DNA of 64,000 nt, from IMG/VR virus record IMGVR_UViG_3300023174_003154, positions 12,140 to 76,139 of that record. One strand, given 5' to 3'. Within the stretch, counting starts at the first letter, position 1. Every line of letters begins with the position of its first letter. The position numbers were made by a program, and so were the translations under genes. Of this stretch, positions 3,762 through 14,456 are shown piece by piece. Under the pieces are notes generated by a model. It was not told where the DNA came from. It worked only from the letters and a program-made list of their open reading frames with translations, and did not search any database. This DNA comes from a virus.

Positions 3762-4775
3762 ATGACTAACCTTTTTAAGAAAGCCGCAACCTTTACTGAC
3801 ATTCACTTCGGTTTAAAGAGCAACAGCTTACAACACAATCAAGACTGTTCCAATTTTGTAGATTGGTTCATTGCTGAGGCAAAGAAAGAAAACTGCGAGA
3901 CTTGTTTCTTCTTGGGCGATTATAACCATCATCGTGCAAGCATTAACATTCATACATTGCAGTTTGGTTTGCAAGCATTAGAAAAACTCAATAAGGCATT
4001 TGACCAAGTATATTTTATACCAGGTAATCATGACCTTTATTACAGAGACAAGCGAGACATTCATAGTGTAGAGTGGGCTAGACATTTACCTAACGTCACT
4101 ATTGTCAATGATTGGTTTGTTAGAGATGATGTTGTTATTGCACCCTGGCTTGTACAAGATGATTATAAAAAGATTCAAAAACTAAGTGGCAAATATATGT
4201 TTGGTCATTTTGAACTACCAAACTTCTACATGAATGCTATGGTAGAGATGCCCGATCACGGTGAGATTAGTGCTGAACACATGACAGGTTTTGATACTGT
4301 ATTCAGTGGTCACTTTCACAAACGACAAGCAAAGAAAAACGTTTGGTATACAGGCAATGCTTTCCCACATAACTACGCAGATGCAGGTGATGATGCACGT
4401 GGTATGATGATATTAGAATGGGGTAAAGACCCAGAGTTTCGTAGTTGGCCAAATCAACCCATGTATAGAGTTTATAAACTCAGTGATATATTAGAAAATC
4501 CTAAAGGATTGCTATTACCTGACAGTCATGTTAGAGTACATCTTGACATTGATATCAGTTATGAAGAAGCAAACTTCATCAGGGAGACACTTATTCCAGA
4601 ACATAAACTACGTGAAATGGCATTGATACCTATGAAGGTTGAACAAGTAGAACAACAGGCTAACGGTGGCTTGAAGTTTGAAAGTGTAGACCAAATCGTT
4701 ATTGACCAGATTAACAGTATTGAATCAAACACATTTGACAAACGAATTTTGTTAGAGATTTACAACAACCTATGA
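3762..4775 (+). CDS. gp47: Recombination endonuclease subunit (Mre11/SbcD-like)
   Basis: Metallophosphoesterase motifs TDIHFG, LGD, GNHD, GHF, SGHFH. Confidence 0.92.
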   Translation: MTNLFKKAATFTDIHFGLKSNSLQHNQDCSNFVDWFIAEAKKENCETCFFLGDYNHHRASINIHTLQFGLQALEKLNKAFDQVYFIPGNHDLYYRDKRDIHSVEWARHLPNVTIVNDWFVRDDVVIAPWLVQDDYKKIQKLSGKYMFGHFELPNFYMNAMVEMPDHGEISAEHMTGFDTVFSGHFHKRQAKKNVWYTGNAFPHNYADAGDDARGMMILEWGKDPEFRSWPNQPMYRVYKLSDILENPKGLLLPDSHVRVHLDIDISYEEANFIRETLIPEHKLREMALIPMKVEQVEQQANGGLKFESVDQIVIDQINSIESNTFDKRILLEIYNNL

Positions 4776-4993
4776 AGTCACCCAAAGAAGTTAAAGAATT
4801 AGAATCATTGATTAAAGTAAACAAACATCTGGGTATTGCTTTATCTGAGTTAACTCATACTCATTCCTATATAGGTAGCTTACGTGAACAAAAGAGTTTG
4901 ATTAAAGTTAAACTAAAATTAGAAGGTATAATAGAACGGACATTGAAGGAAGAGAAATCATCCAAAGACAGTTTTTTTAGAAAATTAAAATGA
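4772..4993 (+). CDS. Small basic hypothetical protein
   Basis: ATGA overlaps with both gp47 and gp46 suggest translational coupling. Confidence 0.65.
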   Translation: MKSPKEVKELESLIKVNKHLGIALSELTHTHSYIGSLREQKSLIKVKLKLEGIIERTLKEEKSSKDSFFRKLK

Positions 4994-7062
4994 TATTATT
5001 AAAGAACATTACACTACGAAACTTTCTATCGATCGGACAAGTCACGCAAGCAGTTGACTTTAACCGACAAGACTTAACACTTATTCTAGGTGAGAACTTA
5101 GACTTAGGTGGTGACGGTGCTCGTAATGGTACAGGTAAGACTAGTCTTATTCAAGGTCTAAGCTATGCATTGTTTGGTGTGCCCATTAACTCAATTAGAA
5201 AAGATAATTTAGTTAATCGTACAAATGGAAAGGGCATGTTAGTCACACTTGAGTTTAGTGTAAATGGTATTGACTACAAGATTGAGCGTGGTCGTAAGCC
5301 AAACCTATTGAGATTTTATGTAAACAGTGATTTACAAAAAGGTACAGACGATGCACAGGGTGAGAACAAAGAAACACAGATAGCAATTGAAAAAGTTCTG
5401 TGTATGTCTAGTAGCATGTTCCGCCATATCGTAGCATTGAATACATATAGCGAACCGTTCTTAGCACTTAAAGCAAACGAACAACGTGAAATCATTGAAC
5501 AGTTATTGGGTATCACATTACTATCTGAGAAAGCAGAGACAATTAAGGTACTGTTAAAAGATACCAAAGATAGTATTCAAGGTGAAGAATTCAAAGTCAA
5601 AGCTATTGAAGAAGCCAATAAGCGAGTAAAAGAACAGATTGAAAGTTTGAAACGCAGACAAGGTCTTTGGCAAAAGAAACACGAAAGTGACTTAGCATAC
5701 CTAGTTGCACAGTATGATGAACTAGGCAAGATTGACATTGAAGTTGAATTATTAGCGCACAAAGAATTAGTCATTTGGAATGAGAAGAAAAAGCAACAAG
5801 ATGCATACAATTCATTATTGGCTAGACAAACTGCTTGGAAACAAAAGCAAGAAAAAGACATATACGATTTAGAGAAAAACGGTATCAAGATGAGCCAAAT
5901 TGATATCGTACAAGAAATATTAGCACATCGTGCTTTGGCTGAATATAACAACAAGTTAAAAGAAATTGCAGACAGAGACAAAGAAGTTGCAAGAATCGAT
6001 AAGGACATTGAAAAAGAAAACAAGTTAATTGAGAAATTAAATGTTGAAATTTTAAAACTGTTAGCACATCAATGCTATGCTTGCGGGCAAGACTTCCATG
6101 ATGAACAACATTCTAAGGTGTTGGCTGACAAAGAAAAGATGTTGGAAGATGCACAGTTTCATGTCACTACGTTGTTGAATCAACTTAAAGAATTGAGTGA
6201 CAAGGACATTGTATTGGGTGATAAACCCAAGACACATTACAAGACAGAAGCAGAAGCGATTCGTCATGGTAGCGATGCAGAAAATATTCGCACAAAAATA
6301 CTTGAAAAAGAAAAAGAAGTTGATCCATATGCTGAACAACTAGCAGAATATAAACCAGTTGAGATTGGTGTTATGCCAGTCACTCATTATGATACAGAAA
6401 CGCAAGCGATTGAACATCGTAGTAAAGTATCTGGGTTATTACAACAGATTGAAACAAAAGCAGTTGAGTCTGATCCATATGCTGAACAAGTAGTTGAGAT
6501 GGAGTCAAATGCGTTACAAGCAATTGACTTTGAAGCAATCAACAAACTAACAAAGACTATGGAACATCAAAAGTTTCTATTAGATATTCTAACTAGCAAA
6601 GATAGCTTTGTTCGTAAGAAAATCATTGACCAAAATTTGAGTTATTTGAATAGTCGGTTGACGCATTACTTAGACAAGATTGGTTTACCGCATCAGGTTA
6701 TCTTTCAGAATGATTTGAACGTTGAGATTACAGAGTTGGGTCGTGAACTTGATTTTGATAACTTAAGTCGTGGTGAACGTAACAGATTGATTCTTGGCTT
6801 AAGTTTTGCTTTCCGTGATGTTTGGGAGAACTTATATGCACCAATCAATACACTATTCATTGACGAATTGATTGACAGCGGGCTAGATACAATGGGTGTT
6901 GAAAACGCTATTGCTATTCTCAAAGATATGTCACGTAAGAGACAGAAATCAATTTGGCTTGTAAGTCATAGAGAAGAATTAGCAGGGCGTGTTCCTAGTG
7001 TGCTAAAAGTAGTTAAGGAGGGAGGCTTTACTTCTTATTCAAGCGCATCTGATATGGTGTAA
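4990..7062 (+). CDS. gp46: Recombination ATPase subunit (Rad50/SbcC-like)
   Basis: Walker A NGTGKT, CYAC zinc hook, LSRGE signature, Walker B LFIDE, VSH. Confidence 0.93.
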   Translation: MILLKNITLRNFLSIGQVTQAVDFNRQDLTLILGENLDLGGDGARNGTGKTSLIQGLSYALFGVPINSIRKDNLVNRTNGKGMLVTLEFSVNGIDYKIERGRKPNLLRFYVNSDLQKGTDDAQGENKETQIAIEKVLCMSSSMFRHIVALNTYSEPFLALKANEQREIIEQLLGITLLSEKAETIKVLLKDTKDSIQGEEFKVKAIEEANKRVKEQIESLKRRQGLWQKKHESDLAYLVAQYDELGKIDIEVELLAHKELVIWNEKKKQQDAYNSLLARQTAWKQKQEKDIYDLEKNGIKMSQIDIVQEILAHRALAEYNNKLKEIADRDKEVARIDKDIEKENKLIEKLNVEILKLLAHQCYACGQDFHDEQHSKVLADKEKMLEDAQFHVTTLLNQLKELSDKDIVLGDKPKTHYKTEAEAIRHGSDAENIRTKILEKEKEVDPYAEQLAEYKPVEIGVMPVTHYDTETQAIEHRSKVSGLLQQIETKAVESDPYAEQVVEMESNALQAIDFEAINKLTKTMEHQKFLLDILTSKDSFVRKKIIDQNLSYLNSRLTHYLDKIGLPHQVIFQNDLNVEITELGRELDFDNLSRGERNRLILGLSFAFRDVWENLYAPINTLFIDELIDSGLDTMGVENAIAILKDMSRKRQKSIWLVSHREELAGRVPSVLKVVKEGGFTSYSSASDMV

Positions 7063-7121: not shown

Positions 7122-7757
7122 ATGTGGTATGTATACATTTTGTATGACCCTAGAAATAATACACCATTTTATATAGGTAAAGGTGTCAAAAGAAGAATGA
7201 CAGCAACTATCAATATAAATCAAACGGGTAATGGATTAAAACGCAAGTTTCTTAAAGAAATTAAAGATATTGGTTTAAAACCAATAGTTACTGTAGTAGC
7301 AGAGTATGACTCAGAAAAAGATGCGTTAGAAAAAGAAAAAATACTAATTTCAGAATTTGGTAGAATTATTAAAGGAGACGGGTGTTTGACAAATTATTCT
7401 GAAGGTGGGGACTTAAGTAATGCAGGTTGGATCCCATCGGATGATACTAGAAAATTATGGTCTAAGCAACGCAAGGGTATTAAACAGAGTGAGAATCATG
7501 TTTCCGCTAGGGTCGCAAAAACCAAAGGCCTAACTCGGTCGGATACTCAAAGAAAAAATTATATTCTTGCTAGTATTAGGCGTACTAATCCAGAATTAAA
7601 AGCAAACATTATACACGAATTAGAAAGTAATTTGATACAGCACGGTACATTAACTACGATAGCTAAAAAATTCAATTGTAGCATTGACTTGATAAGTAGA
7701 ATACACAAAGATATTAATTTATACAAAGAGGCATTAAATGAGTGGATCAAAAAGTAA
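7122..7757 (+). CDS. Free-standing homing endonuclease, GIY-YIG/LEM-3-like
   Basis: YVYILYDP...FYIGKG..R, A.EKE..LI, LTN motifs; basic NUMOD3-like middle region; overlaps the next gene by 20 nt. Confidence 0.75.
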   Translation: MWYVYILYDPRNNTPFYIGKGVKRRMTATININQTGNGLKRKFLKEIKDIGLKPIVTVVAEYDSEKDALEKEKILISEFGRIIKGDGCLTNYSEGGDLSNAGWIPSDDTRKLWSKQRKGIKQSENHVSARVAKTKGLTRSDTQRKNYILASIRRTNPELKANIIHELESNLIQHGTLTTIAKKFNCSIDLISRIHKDINLYKEALNEWIKK

Positions 7758-8313
7758 GAATAAAGGTAACGCATTTGAGCGTGAAGTTGCTAATTTTTTA
7801 TCTAAAACATACAATGCCTCTTTTGTTCGGGCAGCACATAGCGGTGCATTTATAGGTGGGACAAACAATCACCGAAAAGAATATCTAAGTGAGAATCAAG
7901 TTAAATCATTCAAAGGTGATATCATACCACCTGATGATTGGAAACATTTCAATGCCGAAGCGAAAAGTTACGCTGACTTTCCGTTTCATCTGGTACTAAC
8001 AGGTGAATGCAAACAACTTGATTCGTGGTTAGCACAATTACTTGATGTAGAAGATACTGACGATTTAAATATTCTTTTTATGAAGTTTAATCGTAAAGGT
8101 CAATATGTCGCTGTACAAGGTAAACTAACATGGAAAGCAGATAATTGTCTTTTATATAGTAGTCCTACACACGGCGACTGGGTCATCATGGAACATTCTA
8201 GCTTTTTTCAAAACAATGCAGAATTAGTAAAAACATATTCAAGCACAACAATCGACACCACGTCAACTCTTAATACAAATATAAACGAATTTCATAAACA
8301 ATTAGTCGGCTGA
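7738..8313 (+). CDS. Holliday junction resolvase (Hjc-like PD-(D/E)xK nuclease)
   Basis: KG..FERE.A..L, GDII and EAK motifs. Confidence 0.8.
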   Translation: MSGSKSKNKGNAFEREVANFLSKTYNASFVRAAHSGAFIGGTNNHRKEYLSENQVKSFKGDIIPPDDWKHFNAEAKSYADFPFHLVLTGECKQLDSWLAQLLDVEDTDDLNILFMKFNRKGQYVAVQGKLTWKADNCLLYSSPTHGDWVIMEHSSFFQNNAELVKTYSSTTIDTTSTLNTNINEFHKQLVG

Positions 8314-8660
8314 GTTGTCAGTCCTCCTTGAGATTGTACAGATTGTGCTGTGCCGTCAGATTCTGGAGTATGCATGTTAGCAATAACATGGAACACCGAG
8401 AAGGCTCTCGTCAAAGCGAACCTTCAATGAGTCTATAGCTACTCCATTTTGATGCTATAGAACATGCGTTGCAGAATGAAACACTAGAGTGCGTAATTCA
8501 ACTACAGACCAATAAACCCTACAGGGCAACCGGTGGCGAACAATAACATAAAAACGTTGATTGTTCGGGTAAAGATGGCAAGGATGACGGTCATGGCATG
8601 TCACCATTGGTAGTGCTTAAATAGCACTACCATGGCTTCTAATCGGCATGATATATCCGA
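8304..8660 (+). ncRNA. Putative large structured non-coding RNA of unknown family
   Basis: No ORF in the track; long-range stems 8314-25/8581-91 and 8351-57/8574-80; hairpins at 8373-90 (GCAA loop), 8432-61, 8537-67 and 8604-35. G-U pairs favour the plus strand. Ends approximate. Confidence 0.6.
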
Positions 8661-8708
8661 TGAGTAATTAGATAAAAACAATAATTAAGAATAGATAAGA
8701 GTACAACC

Positions 8709-8751
8709 AAGAACGAGTGATAACGAGTTCTTAGAAGAACGAAGTTCTTCT
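8709..8751. repeat. Two adjacent inverted repeats at the point of convergent transcription
   Basis: AAGAAC-gagtgataacga-GTTCTT and AGAAGAAC-gaa-GTTCTTCT. Confidence 0.75.
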
Positions 8752-8789
8752 CCATAAGAAACAACAACTTGATAAATGAACCTTTCCGT

Positions 8790-9020
8790 TTAAAAGAATG
8801 GCAATTTCGTATTCTTTGTAGTTTCTAAGTTACTTTCAATAATAGCAGTTATGGCATTTCTTTCGTCATTGCTCATATTGAGTATATCCTCATAGGATGC
8901 TCCTCCCCTCATATACCATGACATTTTAAGTGCTCCTTTTCTTATATCAGAGCACTCCTGTTCCATACCATCTATCATTCGCTTAATCCCCTCGGAACCA
9001 AGGAGAAGAAGCCTTAGTCG
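8790..9020 (-). CDS. Small tail/baseplate assembly ORF (gp51-like); probably the -1 frameshift extension of the upstream gene
   Basis: The frame is open from the slippery site at 9026-9020 through the ATG at 8978 to the stop at 8790; WYMRGG.SYEDILNMS..ER motif. Confidence 0.65.
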   Translation of the reverse strand, partial: RLRLLLLGSEGIKRMIDGMEQECSDIRKGALKMSWYMRGGASYEDILNMSNDERNAITAIIESNLETTKNTKLPFF

Positions 9021-9841
9021 AAAAAATCAGATATATTGATGTTTAGTGATTGTTGATGTGTGTGACTGCAATGACTACATGTAATATCTAAAGGTTTTAG
9101 TTCCGTTGTTTTACGCAATTCAATATTCTTTTCTTTGATAAAGTTATGAGTATTTTTATCACATTGTTGTAGGAATTCATTTATAAATTCTTTATCAAAA
9201 ACTGTTGCATCTGGGGTTTTGATATACTCAATGGTTTCTATCAACAATTCAGTAGTGAGGTCATTAATGCTTGCTATTAATTGACTTGTTTTTGTATTCT
9301 TTAAATCAACATCTTCAATTCTGTCTATATCCAATAGAGTACGTTGAATCTCAAATTGCTTTTCATTTGCTTTACTAACTTCTTTATACGTCAGAGGTCT
9401 AAATTTAATTTTTAACTCACCTATTGTCACTGGAGTGTTATAGTCACCAGGTGTAAAAGTTCCCAACAATCCTGACAGGTTAACATCAAACTTACTTTCT
9501 TCCTTACATTCTGGACAAGTAGAATCAATCTCCATTAATTGACCATTAGTAGCAATTTTAATAGCAACTAATATTGGATCTAAATCAATGTTCAGTAATT
9601 CCCAGGGTCTTTTGATTGATGGAACACAACTTTTGATGATTTCTGTTACTGCTACCCCATTGAAAAGTGCATCAGGAGTTCTGCTTGTTATCTCATCAAT
9701 AGCAGACATTGGGTATATTGGTAATTCTCCGCTCTCGGGGAATTCAATAGCACCTTCACTATATCCTACACCCCCGCTTGGTAGTTTTAAATACAATGCT
9801 GGGCGGCGAAAGAATTGTCGTAATGGATTATCTTGAGTCAT
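9014..9841 (-). CDS. gp26: Baseplate hub assembly protein/tail chaperone
   Basis: YLKLPSGG, PM.A.DE, D.D.IL.AI.IAT, CPEC and CSHC pairs, C-terminal DFFD. Confidence 0.75.
   Translation of the reverse strand: MTQDNPLRQFFRRPALYLKLPSGGVGYSEGAIEFPESGELPIYPMSAIDEITSRTPDALFNGVAVTEIIKSCVPSIKRPWELLNIDLDPILVAIKIATNGQLMEIDSTCPECKEESKFDVNLSGLLGTFTPGDYNTPVTIGELKIKFRPLTYKEVSKANEKQFEIQRTLLDIDRIEDVDLKNTKTSQLIASINDLTTELLIETIEYIKTPDATVFDKEFINEFLQQCDKNTHNFIKEKNIELRKTTELKPLDITCSHCSHTHQQSLNINISDFFD
9020..9026 (-). other. Candidate programmed -1 ribosomal frameshift heptamer T TTT TTC
   Basis: GAT TTT TTC GAC TAA; the -1 frame opens exactly here (preceded by TGA) and runs into ORF 8978-8790. Confidence 0.7.
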
Positions 9842-12692: not shown

Positions 12693-14456
12693 ATGTCATA
12701 TAAAAAGCGTTTCCAAGCCCCAAATCTAACCGGTGCAGTCAGTCCTATCTCAGGTGCAAACAGTAATCGTGGTGCCTGGAATAGTCAAGTAACCCCATCA
12801 GGTGGTTATAACAATACAGACTTTGGTTATAAGAACTATCAAAGTCGTTTACCAGAAGTTTATACTGGTCATCCAAATCGTGTTGAACGATATAATCAAT
12901 ATGAAATGATGGATGTAGATGCTGAAATCAATGCATGTTTAGACATTATTGCTGAGTTCAGTACACAGAAAAACGAACAGAATAATACACCTTTTGAGAT
13001 AGAATTCTCAGAAGATCCAACCCCCCATGAAGTTGAATTGATTAAAAAGCAATTACAGCAATGGTGTAAACTCAATGAGTTTGATACTAGGTCATTCAAA
13101 ATCTTCCGTAATACTATCAAGTACGGGGATCAGGTTTTTGTACGTGATCCAGAAAACTTCAAGTTATATTGGGTTGACATGACTAAAGTTACTAAAGTCA
13201 TTGTTAACGAAAGCGAAGGTAAAGCACCAGAGCAATACGTTATCAAAGATATTAACGTTAACTTACAGAATCTAAGTATTGCTGAAAAGACAACAACAGA
13301 CTTTATGACACCTCAGGGCCCTGGTGGATATCAAGGTACCTCAAACTACAGCGTACCAAACGGTGGTAGCGGTAATAGTGGTAGTCGTTTTACATTGGGT
13401 ATGAACGAAGCAGCCATTGATGCAAAGCATGTTGTTCATCTAAGTTTAACAGAAGGTCTAGACCGTTATTGGCCTTTTGGACAAAGTATCTTAGAAAACA
13501 TTTTCAAAGTCTATAAGCAGAAAGAATTGCTTGAAGATGCTATTCTTATCTATCGTGTACAACGTGCACCAGAACGTAGAGTCTTTAAGATTGACGTTGG
13601 TAACATGCCAAGTCATATGGCTATGGCATTCGTTGACCGCATTAAAAATGAAATTCATCAACGTAGAATTCCAAGCGTAAGTGGTGGACAAAGCGTAATG
13701 GATGCAACATATAATCCATTGTCAATGAACGAAGATTACTTCTTTCCAGTCACAGCAGATGGTCGTGGTAGTGATGTAACTACATTACCCGGTGGTGATA
13801 ACTTAGGTCAAATTGATGACTTGCGTTATTTCAACAACAGATTAGCACGTGGATTACGTGTTCCAAGTTCATACTTACCTCAAGGTCCAGAAGACAGTCC
13901 TACTCCATTAGCTGATGGTAGAGTTGGAACTGCTATGATTCAAGAGTTCCGTTTTAATCAATATTGTGAACGATTACAGAAGTACATTAGCCAAAAGTTC
14001 AATGACGAATTCAAACTATTCATGCGTTGGAGAGGCTTCAATATTGATTCAAGTTTATTTGATATCAAGTTTAATGCACCGCAAAACTTTGCCGCTTATC
14101 GTCAAAGTGAATTAGATACATCACGTGTAACAGTATTTCAAACAATGGAAGCATTTCCTTATATTAGTAAACGTTTTGCTATGACACGTTTCTTAGGATT
14201 GACAGAAGAAGAAATCGAAGAAAATCAACGATTGTGGTTTGAAGAACGTGAAGCTCCTGAAGATAATGAAGCTAAAGGTAGTGACTTACGTAGTATCGGT
14301 ATCAGTACTGGCGACTTGGAAACTGATGCAGAAGCAATGGATGAGATTCCGGATGAGAATGCAGAAGAAATGCCAATGGACGATATGGCAGGTGCTCCGG
14401 CAGTAGCGGCTCCTGCAGGCTTAGGTAACGCAGCCGCCCCTCCCCCACCGGTATAA
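12693..14456 (+). CDS. gp20: Portal vertex protein
   Basis: LEDAILIYRVQRAPERRVFKIDVGNMP, EDYFFP, TLPGGDNLGQIDD, LRVPSS motifs of T4 gp20. Confidence 0.95.
   Translation: MSYKKRFQAPNLTGAVSPISGANSNRGAWNSQVTPSGGYNNTDFGYKNYQSRLPEVYTGHPNRVERYNQYEMMDVDAEINACLDIIAEFSTQKNEQNNTPFEIEFSEDPTPHEVELIKKQLQQWCKLNEFDTRSFKIFRNTIKYGDQVFVRDPENFKLYWVDMTKVTKVIVNESEGKAPEQYVIKDINVNLQNLSIAEKTTTDFMTPQGPGGYQGTSNYSVPNGGSGNSGSRFTLGMNEAAIDAKHVVHLSLTEGLDRYWPFGQSILENIFKVYKQKELLEDAILIYRVQRAPERRVFKIDVGNMPSHMAMAFVDRIKNEIHQRRIPSVSGGQSVMDATYNPLSMNEDYFFPVTADGRGSDVTTLPGGDNLGQIDDLRYFNNRLARGLRVPSSYLPQGPEDSPTPLADGRVGTAMIQEFRFNQYCERLQKYISQKFNDEFKLFMRWRGFNIDSSLFDIKFNAPQNFAAYRQSELDTSRVTVFQTMEAFPYISKRFAMTRFLGLTEEEIEENQRLWFEEREAPEDNEAKGSDLRSIGISTGDLETDAEAMDEIPDENAEEMPMDDMAGAPAVAAPAGLGNAAAPPPPV

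What the first reader, a model, noticed from the sequence alone, without database searches (positions are those of the whole stretch)
8304..8660. Candidate novel large structured ncRNA in the only long non-coding gap
Seen: the genome is otherwise wall-to-wall coding, yet about 475 nt after the resolvase has no ORF in the track and its first ~350 nt look GC-richer than the flanks. It contains nested pairings: a closing stem GTTGTCAgTCCT (8314-25)/AGGATGACGGT (8581-91); an abutting stem TGCCGTC (8351-57)/GATGGCA (8574-80), compatible with coaxial stacking; hairpins CATGTTA-GCAA-TAACATG (8373-90, GNRA loop), GAAGG (8400-04)/CCTTC (8421-25), TCTATAGC/GCTATAGA (8432-61) and CGAACAAT/ATTGTTCG (8537-67); and a perfect 10-bp TGGTAGTGCT/AGCACTACCA (8608-32). 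The G-U pairs and GNRA loop argue for a plus-strand RNA rather than DNA palindromes. I see no tRNA, tmRNA, RNase P or group I/II intron consensus. Inference: an ornate phage RNA (analogous in kind to GOLLD/ROOL, not identified as either) co-transcribed with the recombination nucleases; it could be a ribozyme, a scaffold or partner for the adjacent nuclease, or a replication primer.
Basis: partly seen in the sequence, partly recalled or inferred. Interest (0 to 1): 0.85.

Follow-up and report, generated by a model that had tools for sequence, protein, structure and literature searches.

The report
New knotted twin-box jumbo-phage RNA
The gene-free gap behind a small nuclease gene of this uncultured lake-water giant phage encodes a real non-coding RNA of about 345 bases with two pseudoknots; more than 200 related phages keep it, no RNA catalogue lists it, and its job is still unknown.

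Summary
The finding holds. Window ~8306-8650 (+ strand) is a conserved structured RNA.

- **Distribution:** Exact motifs from it hit more than 200 IMG/VR viral contigs, giving 133 distinct full-length copies. It is single-copy in five near-complete 303-525 kb phage genomes, and no copy turned up among the 49 places in prokaryote species-representative genomes that match its 3' hairpin pattern.
- **Structure:** I placed 89 base pairs in 16 helices. They are 95% paired, against 84% after shuffling and 31-43% when partners are slid. 58 pairs show changes on both sides. The fold includes two pseudoknots and a four-way junction.
- **Strand:** G-U outnumbers A-C 418 to 78, which fixes the plus strand.
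Five of the seven stems are confirmed. The two long-range closing stems are not.
- **Known families:** Rfam 15 has no match, even at E<=10.
- **Expression:** Contigs from lake-water RNA libraries cover the nuclease gene's 3' half plus the RNA and stop near 8658.
- **Twin boxes:** Two short single-stranded words flank the 3' hairpin. They differ between phages but stay the same within each RNA and have no complement inside the RNA.
- **Function:** Unknown. My best guess is a trans-acting scaffold RNA whose twin boxes pair with two copies of one short partner.

The scan had already found this family on other genomes. I could not reproduce the earlier link to the Polynucleobacter-1 motif.

The parts
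8296..8307 (+). Conserved 5' leader (AAxTxG) overlapping the end of the resolvase-like ORF. In most relatives it reads (T)ATAAAAATTNG, a 7-of-8 match to the T4 late promoter TATAAATA. The window copy is degenerate.
   Evidence: the promoter reading is inference
8308..8323 (+). P1 hairpin (GGCUGA/UCAGUC, loop GUUG). The window's resolvase stop codon TGA (8311-8313) lies inside it.
   Evidence: all 6 pairs show changes on both sides (helix 1); stop-codon positions
8324..8368 (+). P2-P2a-P2b composite hairpin. The invariant CCUCCUU (identical to the anti-Shine-Dalgarno end of 16S rRNA, from my own knowledge) pairs its CUCC with the invariant GGAG at 8365-68. P2a is 8330-34/8355-63 and P2b is 8336-40/8349-53.
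   Evidence: helices 2-3; P2 never varies, while P2a and P2b covary
8373..8390 (+). P3 variable hairpin (GCAA loop in the window; some relatives carry long insertions)
   Evidence: MIp 0.62-0.67 for 8376-87 and 8377-86
8394..8535 (+). Four-way-junction core. P4 8394-98/8531-35 encloses P5 8400-04/8421-25 with P5a 8408-10/8417-19, P6 8427-29/8463-65 with P6a 8432-39/8454-61, and P7 8468-73/8525-30 with the variable hairpin P7a 8474-8499. Two invariant UACAG words lie at 8502-06 and 8520-24.
   Evidence: helices 7-12; covariance model R1 of this domain scores 135-154 bits in five complete genomes
8444..8449 (+). PK1 5' strand (loop of P6a), pairing with 8573-8578
   Evidence: 6 pairs, 96-98% standard, UA:72/CG:57 and AU:76/GC:51 among 133 copies; helix 11
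8508..8510 (+). PK2 5' strand, pairing with 8568-8570 (4 bp in most relatives, 3 bp in the window)
   Evidence: UA:83, AU:19, CG:16 at 8508-8570; helix 13
8537..8567 (+). P8 hairpin (CGAACAAU/AUUGUUCG plus an inner 3 bp)
   Evidence: helices 14-15; 10 of 11 pairs change on both sides
8568..8578 (+). 3' strands of PK2 (8568-70) and PK1 (8573-78)
8589..8599 (+). Twin box A (GGUCAUGGCAU; family consensus GGKCAUGGCAA)
   Evidence: 8591 and 8643 carry the same letter (GG 75, UU 33 of 133); 8599 and 8649 likewise
8604..8635 (+). P9 hairpin, 13 bp with one bulge and nearly invariant. Its 3' strand reads GCACUACCAUGG.
   Evidence: helix 16; the pattern alone retrieved 119 or more viral contigs, all carrying the whole RNA
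8641..8650 (+). Twin box B (AAUCGGCAUG; consensus AAKCGGCAA) and the last conserved bases of the RNA
   Evidence: an RNA-library contig ends at 8658

Best explanation
Window ~8306-8650 (+) is a stand-alone gene for a non-coding RNA of about 345 nt, present in a lineage of uncultured freshwater T4-related jumbo phages.

Shown:
- It is an RNA read from the plus strand.
- It has a 5' hairpin domain (P1-P3), a four-way-junction core (P4-P7) locked by two pseudoknots (PK1, PK2), hairpin P8, and a 3' domain.
- In the 3' domain a nearly invariant hairpin (P9) is flanked by two single-stranded 'twin boxes'.
- It is single-copy and sits between the recombination nucleases and the baseplate-hub genes.
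- Contigs from RNA libraries cover it.

Inferred: the knotted core is a rigid body or a protein-binding platform. The twin boxes are two identical seed sequences that base-pair in trans with two copies of one short partner (RNA or single-stranded DNA), so the RNA acts as a scaffold or bridge rather than as a cis-regulator. The partner and the biological outcome are unknown.
For: - Family size: two 17-18-mers and the P9 pattern hit more than 200 IMG/VR contigs. Every one of the 202 loci with an nhmmer hit lies in a viral contig, and 133 distinct full-length copies were recovered.
- Structure: 89 pairs are 95.2% paired, against 84.3% after shuffling and 31-43% when partners are slid. 58 pairs change on both sides. 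The covariation score is 0.337 against 0.14 and about 0.05. The top mutual-information pairs are almost all helix pairs, PK1 and PK2 included.
- Strand: G-U 418 against A-C 78.
- Not cis-regulatory for a downstream gene: the next genes converge on it from the minus strand in 169 of 170 loci.
- Not part of the ORF: the upstream stop codon falls anywhere from 11 to 87 nt before the invariant CCUCCUUGAG.
- Single copy in five genomes of 303-525 kb.
- RNA-library contigs from four lake-water studies cover 7975-8658 at summed contig depth 21-235, against 0-6 over the convergent genes. One whole 490-nt contig spans 8169-8658.
- Twin boxes: 8591/8643 read GG 75, UU 33. Rare words recur in both boxes of the same RNA: GUUGAA, CGGUAA, GCAAGUA, AACAUGA, CGAAAGU, AAGCAG, CAGCAU, AGUAAU, GAUAAU.
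- No complement of the box word lies inside the RNA or at a fixed place within the fetched flanks.
- Two RNAs carry AGC in one box and AGU in the other, a difference that a G in a pairing partner would tolerate.
Against: - No partner has been found, so trans pairing is inference.
- Twin-box identity could equally reflect two sites for one dimeric protein.
- 20 of 133 copies differ at the K position (GA 12, GC 8).
- Most copies share one word (GGCAA), so the covariation rests on roughly a dozen variant lineages.
- Contigs cannot show the strand, the ends or the level of a transcript, and mapping at 88% likeness may simply fail in the less conserved downstream DNA.
- No cultured phage carries a detectable copy, so nothing has been tested at the bench.
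Confidence: 0.4

Rival explanations
1. Replication-origin RNA. The transcript forms a persistent RNA-DNA hybrid or primer at an origin placed between recombination and baseplate genes. This would resemble T4 oriF next to uvsY and genes 25/26, or the ColE1 RNA II pre-primer.
For: The position between the SbcCD/resolvase and gp26-like genes parallels T4 ori(uvsY), which lies beside genes 25/26 (my own knowledge of the T4 map). ColE1 RNA II shows that a folded RNA can prime replication (own knowledge). Cultured relatives 121Q and PA5oct keep unannotated non-coding DNA near the same slot.
Against: In the complete 364-kb relative G005, the cumulative GC skew peaks at 191 kb and is lowest at the contig start, whereas the RNA lies at 293.7 kb. 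The locus is a convergent transcription junction, not a divergent one. T4 origins need a promoter and an unwinding element, not a 345-nt doubly knotted RNA. No DNA-level complement of the twin boxes lies nearby.
Confidence: 0.12
2. Cis-acting 3' end element of the recombination-nuclease operon. In this reading it is a nuclease-resistant cap, a terminator or an insulator that stops early/middle transcription from running antisense into the late baseplate genes.
For: It always lies at the 3' end of the plus-strand unit and faces convergent genes. RNA-library contigs join the nuclease gene to the RNA and end near 8658. Conserved hairpins follow at about 8719-8765.
Against: About 345 nt with two pseudoknots, invariant single-stranded words and co-varying twin boxes is far more than a stabiliser or terminator needs. 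No terminator-like site was found. Where the gp26 side is lost (L096), the RNA is still kept.
Confidence: 0.13
3. Ribozyme: a self-cleaving or RNA-processing catalyst whose knotted core is an active site.
For: The size, the double pseudoknot, the four-way junction and many invariant unpaired nucleotides (GCGU, the UACAG pair, AACCGG) resemble those of large ribozymes.
Against: No match to any ribozyme or intron family in Rfam 15 at E<=10. The strand order of the helices does not fit group I (the P3-P7 order) or RNase P (my comparison, from memory). The contigs show no joints or splice-like skips (table 5).
Confidence: 0.1
4. Self-assembling ornate RNA. The RNA would form a homo-oligomeric particle, as cryo-EM showed for GOLLD and ROOL, and PK1 or the twin boxes would be contacts between molecules.
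For: GOLLD and ROOL are large phage-associated RNAs that form RNA-only multimers (PMC12286853). Covariation cannot tell an intramolecular from an intermolecular PK1.
Against: Identical words cannot pair with each other. There is no sequence or model similarity to GOLLD or ROOL. No data on oligomeric state exist.
Confidence: 0.1
5. DNA-level element (packaging site, recombination hot spot or protein-binding repeats), or a small protein gene.
For: The minus strand folds even better than the plus strand (z = -5.0). The twin boxes are direct repeats.
Against: The strong G-U over A-C asymmetry (418 to 78) is expected for RNA, not for DNA cruciforms. Box spacing varies from 52 to 67 nt. Helices keep pairing through compensatory changes without three-base periodicity, and the hairpins P3 and P7a carry insertions and deletions of varying length, so a conserved reading frame is unlikely; I did not test this formally.
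Confidence: 0.03

Closest known systems
GOLLD (RF01998) and ROOL (RF03087), large ornate RNAs often carried by phages
   Same: Several hundred nucleotides long, many covarying helices with pseudoknots, carried by phages, function unknown, found through metagenomes.
   Different: No sequence or covariance-model similarity. Shorter (about 345 nt against roughly 580-800 nt). Not next to tRNA genes: in G005 the tRNA cluster lies more than 50 kb away. Has twin boxes. Oligomeric state unknown.
Polynucleobacter-1 RNA motif (RF01718; Weinberg et al. 2010, PMC2864571), named by earlier agents of this scan as a catalogued fragment of the family
   Same: Freshwater/estuary metagenome origin (PMC2864571).
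   Different: RF01718 gives no hit at E<=10 in the window region, none at E<=5 in 17 family members, none at gathering score in 15 more, and none at E<=1 in five complete genomes that carry the RNA.
ColE1 RNA II and the T4 ori(uvsY) R-loop transcript
   Same: Non-coding transcript beside recombination and baseplate genes (T4); a folded RNA that could act on DNA (ColE1).
   Different: No evidence of an origin here (GC skew). Those RNAs lack a conserved knotted core.
T-box leader RNAs (specifier codon plus conserved purine pairing with a tRNA anticodon loop)
   Same: Each twin-box word reads as a triplet followed by A. GGCAA and AGCAA are exact complements of positions 32-36 of the phage's own tRNA-Gly(GCC) and tRNA-Ser(GCU) loops in G005.
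   Different: No Rfam T-box hit. No downstream gene to regulate. Two identical boxes instead of one. The co-varying K-C letters 5' of the triplet would not pair with tRNA positions 37-38.
Multi-copy non-coding element in the same slot of E. coli jumbo phage 121Q (NC_025447, 326509-327344)
   Same: Same slot: after the gp26-like gene and its small downstream ORF, before a junction-resolving nuclease and SbcC.
   Different: Four or more copies per genome against a single copy here. No similarity by nhmmer, by motif search or by model R1. I could not show homology.

Membership tests
Any Rfam 15 family (4227 models, including GOLLD, ROOL, OLE, raiA, HEARO, group I/II introns, RNase P, tmRNA, 6S, SRP, T-box, glmS) | Covariance-model score at or above the family's gathering threshold | tested here: not met
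   0 hits in the whole window and 0 in 15 diverse members. At E<=10 or E<=5 only chance miRNA/snoRNA hits appear outside or across the element.
Polynucleobacter-1 (RF01718) | Match to the 141-position model (gathering score 37 bits) | tested here: not met
   No match at E<=10 in the window, E<=5 in 17 members, or E<=1 in five complete genomes carrying the RNA. No match in the 121Q slot either.
tRNA / tmRNA | Cloverleaf or tRNA-like domain with a tag reading frame, as detected by ARAGORN | tested here: not met
   0 genes in the window. ARAGORN does find 45 tRNAs and a tmRNA elsewhere in relative G005.
Group I intron | P3-P7 pseudoknot strand order, P4-P6 domain, and flanking exons that join into a gene | tested here: not met
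   No Rfam hit. Helix order is P4[P5,P6,P7]P4' then P8. The upstream ORF is complete, with its stop 11-87 nt before the core. Contigs show no joints.
GOLLD/ROOL-type ornate multimeric RNA | Homo-oligomeric RNA-only assembly | not testable with these tools
   Needs native gels or cryo-EM of the transcript.
Conserved structured ncRNA (generic) | Base pairs kept through compensatory changes, beyond shuffled and slid controls | tested here: met
   95.2% paired against 84.3% (shuffled) and 31-43% (slid). 58 of 89 pairs change on both sides. 0 of 500 shuffles reach any observed measure.
T-box-like tRNA-binding RNA | Specifier triplet that matches a tRNA anticodon, plus a T-box bulge pairing with the NCCA end and controlling a downstream gene | tested here: inconclusive
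   The box words fit a triplet+A pattern and match phage tRNA loops for Gly(GCC) and Ser(GCU). There is no T-box model hit and no downstream gene. Binding is untested.

The most novel reading that the evidence does not exclude
The twin boxes are two identical 'specifier' words (triplet + A + A/G) that each capture the anticodon loop of the same tRNA species, for example the phage's own tRNA-Gly(GCC) or tRNA-Ser(GCU). The knotted core would hold the two tRNAs or present them to a phage or host factor. That would make this a new kind of phage RNA acting on the tRNA pool, perhaps shielding tRNAs from host anticodon nucleases or sensing them.
Probability: 0.08. Interest if true: 0.9.

Novelty: categorically new. 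Interest (0 to 1): 0.75.

Why it matters
Large, intricately folded RNAs with conserved tertiary pairings are rare, and most known classes turned out to be ribozymes, ribonucleoprotein scaffolds or self-assembling particles. This RNA is one gene per genome in a widespread group of 200-500 kb lake phages. It has a well-determined secondary structure, so it is ready for cryo-EM or chemical probing. Its twin boxes, which change together, give a direct handle for finding the partner. Learning what it does would add a new RNA-based function to jumbo-phage biology. The family has no cultured member detectable with these tools, which is the main obstacle.

Tried and rejected
- blastn of the gap against 50,697 cultured phage records found nothing.
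- nhmmer and model R1 on PA5oct, Phosso, SCTP-2 and 121Q gave only chance-level hits (E>=0.09). None of the four RNA-seq ncRNAs reported for PA5oct lies in the resolvase slot (PMC7318152).
- All 49 prokaryote-genome matches to the P9 pattern were chance; none carries the RNA.
- The Polynucleobacter-1 lead was not reproduced.
- A closing helix between 8579-8590 and the 3' tail is no better than with tails swapped between sequences (5.45 against 5.40 bp).
- A second twin box (UCCCUU-like, in the linker and the tail) shows a self match no longer than the cross match (4.04 against 4.04). It is a shared motif, not covariation.
- A search for the complement of the box words inside the RNA and in the fetched flanks (a few hundred bases to about 10 kb, as each locus allows) found no consistent site.
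- My first idea that the resolvase stop is the UGA of CCUUGAG was wrong: the stop lies 11-87 nt upstream.
- GC skew of the complete relative G005 shows no extreme at the RNA locus.
- No supplementary files are held for the 2023 IMG/VR structured-RNA survey (PMC10690425), so I could not check whether it lists this motif.
- RNA-library contigs give no transcript ends or strand, and the parts without cover downstream of 8660 are not evidence.

Full report
**Context.** The window is part of a 76-kb IMG/VR viral contig, estimated about 21% complete. It comes from a T4-related jumbo-phage lineage. The genes around the finding are:
- SbcD-like, 3762-4775
- SbcC-like, 4990-7062
- a GIY-YIG homing-endonuclease-like ORF, 7122-7757
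- a PD-(D/E)XK 'RusA-like resolvase' ORF, 7738-8313, plus strand
- the gap
- a 62-aa ORF, 8790-8978, minus strand
- a gp26-like baseplate hub, 9014-9841, minus strand
- a T4 gp20-like portal, 12693-14456

The nearest cultured relatives of the flanking proteins are only 34-49% identical: Rak2-like E. coli phages, PA5oct, SCTP-2 and Phosso.

**The observation.** The gap 8314-8789 has no conserved ORF. Its first 350 nt are GC-richer than the flanks, 43.5% against about 34-37%. The sequence folds better than dinucleotide shuffles on both strands: z = -2.9 to -3.0 for plus and -5.0 for minus. Energy alone therefore supports structure but not a strand. ARAGORN finds no tRNA or tmRNA. Rfam 15 gives nothing at gathering scores in the whole window, and only chance hits at E<=10 around the gap.

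**Conservation.** A relative whose gp26 is only 68% identical at the protein level keeps stretches of 40-55 nt of the gap unchanged, and its hairpins differ by paired substitutions.
- Two exact 17-18-mers from the element hit 61 and 58 IMG/VR contigs.
- A profile search found the whole element in every viral locus fetched, 202 loci in all, and in none of the 49 prokaryote-genome matches to the same pattern.
- There are 133 distinct full-length copies, 59-100% identical to the window copy.

Host contigs reach 525 kb. In five genomes of 303-525 kb (four complete, one 86% complete by CheckV), a covariance model of the core finds exactly one copy each, at 135-154 bits.

**Synteny.** The resolvase-like gene lies upstream on the same strand in 158 of 162 loci. 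The 62-aa ORF and gp26 lie downstream on the opposite strand in 169 of 170 loci. One locus (L096) has lost the gp26 side but keeps resolvase plus RNA.

**Structure.** RNAalifold on 65 copies predicted 58 pairs, 35 of them with compensatory changes. Mutual information with average-product correction on 133 copies ranks helix pairs at the top and exposes two pseudoknots. In window coordinates the model is:

| Element | Pairing |
|---|---|
| P1 | 8308-13 / 8318-23 |
| P2 | 8324-27 / 8365-68 |
| P2a | 8330-34 / 8355-63 |
| P2b | 8336-40 / 8349-53 |
| P3 | 8373-79 / 8384-90 |
| P4 | 8394-98 / 8531-35 |
| P5 | 8400-04 / 8421-25 |
| P5a | 8408-10 / 8417-19 |
| P6 | 8427-29 / 8463-65 |
| P6a | 8432-39 / 8454-61 |
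| PK1 | 8444-49 / 8573-78 |
| P7 | 8468-73 / 8525-30 |
| P7a (variable hairpin) | 8474-8499 |
| PK2 | 8508-10 / 8568-70 |
| P8 | 8537-44 / 8560-67 |
| P9 | 8604-17 / 8623-35 |

P4, P5, P6 and P7 form a four-way junction, and the 3' strands of P7 and P4 are contiguous.

Counting this structure on alignment A2 gives 95.2% standard pairs, against 84.3% after shuffling and 31-43% with partners slid. 58 of 89 pairs change on both sides. The covariation score is 0.337 against 0.140 and about 0.05. None of 500 shuffles reaches any observed measure. Position 8518 carries the same letter as 8394, and both complement 8535. This points to a base triple or an alternative pairing.

**Strand.** Across the helices there are 418 G-U/U-G cells against 78 A-C/C-A cells.

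Five hairpins are confirmed (P3, P5, P6a, P8, P9). The 'closing' stem 8314-25/8581-91 and the 'abutting' stem 8351-57/8574-80 are not kept in relatives: several of their pairs are standard in only 32-66% of copies, with no compensation. They also overlap P1, P2a/P2b and PK1, which do covary.

**Relation to the ORF, and a possible promoter.** The upstream stop codon lies 11-87 nt before the invariant CCUCCUUGAG, most often 27-41 nt. In the window it sits inside P1. The RNA is therefore a separate unit that starts at or just after the end of the ORF. Most relatives have (T)ATAAAAATTNG immediately 5' of P1. This is a 7-of-8 match to the T4 late promoter TATAAATA, and an exact copy of that motif stands before the window's gp26-like gene at 9906-9899. 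Reading it as a promoter is inference, and the window's own copy is degenerate.

**Expression.** Eighteen lake or freshwater metatranscriptome runs hold parts of the stretch. I laid four runs from four studies. Their assembled contigs, about 90-97% identical, cover 7975-8658 at summed contig depths of 21-235, against 0-6 over the convergent genes. One whole 490-nt contig spans 8169-8658, and a 267-nt contig spans 8323-8589. This fits transcription of the nuclease gene's 3' half together with the RNA, with an end near 8658. However, contigs show neither strand nor true ends, and weaker mapping in the less conserved downstream DNA could add to the drop.

**Twin boxes.** Positions 8591 and 8643 carry the same letter (GG 75, UU 33, GA 12, GC 8 of 133), as do 8599 and 8649. 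Most RNAs have KC(AU)GGCAA before P9 and KCGGCAA after it. Where the word differs, it differs in both boxes of the same RNA: GUUGAA, CGGUAA, GCAAGUA, AACAUGA, CGAAAGU, AAGCAG, CAGCAU, AGUAAU, GAUAAU, AGCAAG.

Of the 34 copies whose box-B 5-mer is not GGCAA, 21 carry the same 5-mer in their own box-A region. Most of the rest match after a shift of 1-3 nt. A box-B word is found in the box-A region of RNAs with another word in only 11% of comparisons. The boxes lie 52-67 nt apart. No complement of the word exists inside the RNA or at a fixed place in the fetched flanks.

Identical words cannot pair with each other. They therefore most simply mark two sites for one outside partner. Two RNAs have AGC in one box and AGU in the other, a change that a G in a base-pairing partner would tolerate.

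Every variant word can be read as a triplet followed by A and then A or G, occasionally U. GGCAA and AGCAA are exact complements of positions 32-36 of the tRNA-Gly(GCC) and tRNA-Ser(GCU) loops encoded by relative G005. I record this as an untested idea, because five-letter matches are weak evidence and the co-varying K-C letters would not pair with a tRNA.

**Leads from earlier agents of this scan.** The scan had already found this family on other genomes and described it as a doubly knotted 'twin-box' RNA of unknown function. My independent analysis agrees on structure, spread, twin boxes and the absence of an Rfam match.
- The claim that Rfam's Polynucleobacter-1 (RF01718) is a fragment of the family was not reproduced in the window, in 32 members or in five complete genomes.
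- The lead about a multi-copy element in cultured Rak2-like phages is partly confirmed. E. coli phage 121Q has an 836-nt unannotated gap in the same slot, followed by an endonuclease VII gene rather than a PD-(D/E)XK gene. That gap's element recurs at three other places in 121Q. I found no similarity between it and the window RNA.

**Function.** Nothing computed here fixes it.
- The RNA is not a leader for a downstream gene.
- It is far more elaborate than a terminator or stabiliser needs to be.
- It shows no ribozyme or intron signature.
- It does not sit at a GC-skew extreme in a complete relative.

My best-supported reading, held at modest confidence, is a trans-acting scaffold RNA whose knotted core is a rigid or protein-binding body and whose twin boxes pair with two copies of one short partner. 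The rivals are an origin or primer RNA, a cis 3' end element, a ribozyme and a self-assembling ornate RNA. All remain open and are listed with the tests that would decide between them.

**Verdict.** This is a real feature and a new RNA family by every test available here. It is widespread in uncultured freshwater jumbo phages and its function is unknown.

Noticed in passing
window 7122-7757: A GIY-YIG homing-endonuclease-like ORF sits between SbcC and the resolvase-like gene, overlapping the latter's start. It is present in 8 other family loci but absent from relative L002 (gp26-like protein 99% identical) and from L004, so it looks like a mobile insertion.
   Followed up: partly
L259:4038-4873 (E. 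coli phage 121Q, NC_025447 326509-327344): An 836-nt unannotated gap lies in the same slot, between the small ORF after gp26 and an endonuclease VII gene. Its element recurs at about 247.5, 192.8 and 90.3 kb of 121Q (69-80% identity). No detectable similarity to the window RNA and no Rfam family.
   Followed up: partly
G005 (364-kb complete relative; loci L265-L283): 45 tRNA genes lie in one cluster at 225.7-240.9 kb, and a permuted tmRNA (tag ANDSVFALAA) lies at 361980-362523. The twin-box RNA is more than 50 kb from the tRNA cluster.
   Followed up: partly
window 8518 with 8394 and 8535: Position 8518 always carries the same letter as 8394, and both complement 8535 (the closing pair of P4). 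This suggests a base triple or an alternative pairing.
   Followed up: partly
window 8324-8330: CCUCCUU is invariant in all 133 copies. It equals the anti-Shine-Dalgarno end of 16S rRNA (from my own knowledge), and its CUCC pairs with an invariant GGAG at 8365-68. No conserved start codon or ORF follows.
   Followed up: no
window 8502-8506 and 8520-8524: Two invariant copies of UACAG flank the 5' strand of pseudoknot PK2 inside the P7 loop.
   Followed up: no
window 8719-8765: Conserved hairpins (AAGAAC...GUUCUU and AGAAGAAC-GAAG-GUUCUUCU) lie between the RNA and the convergent 62-aa ORF. They are likely transcript-end structures for one or both directions, although none meets the simple terminator pattern.
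   Followed up: no
L257:988-2500 (PA5oct) and L256:2481-3494 (Phosso): Both cultured relatives have 1-1.5 kb with no gene or only tiny annotated ORFs just upstream of their resolvase genes, near the baseplate hub gene. Neither region was tested for structure.
   Followed up: no
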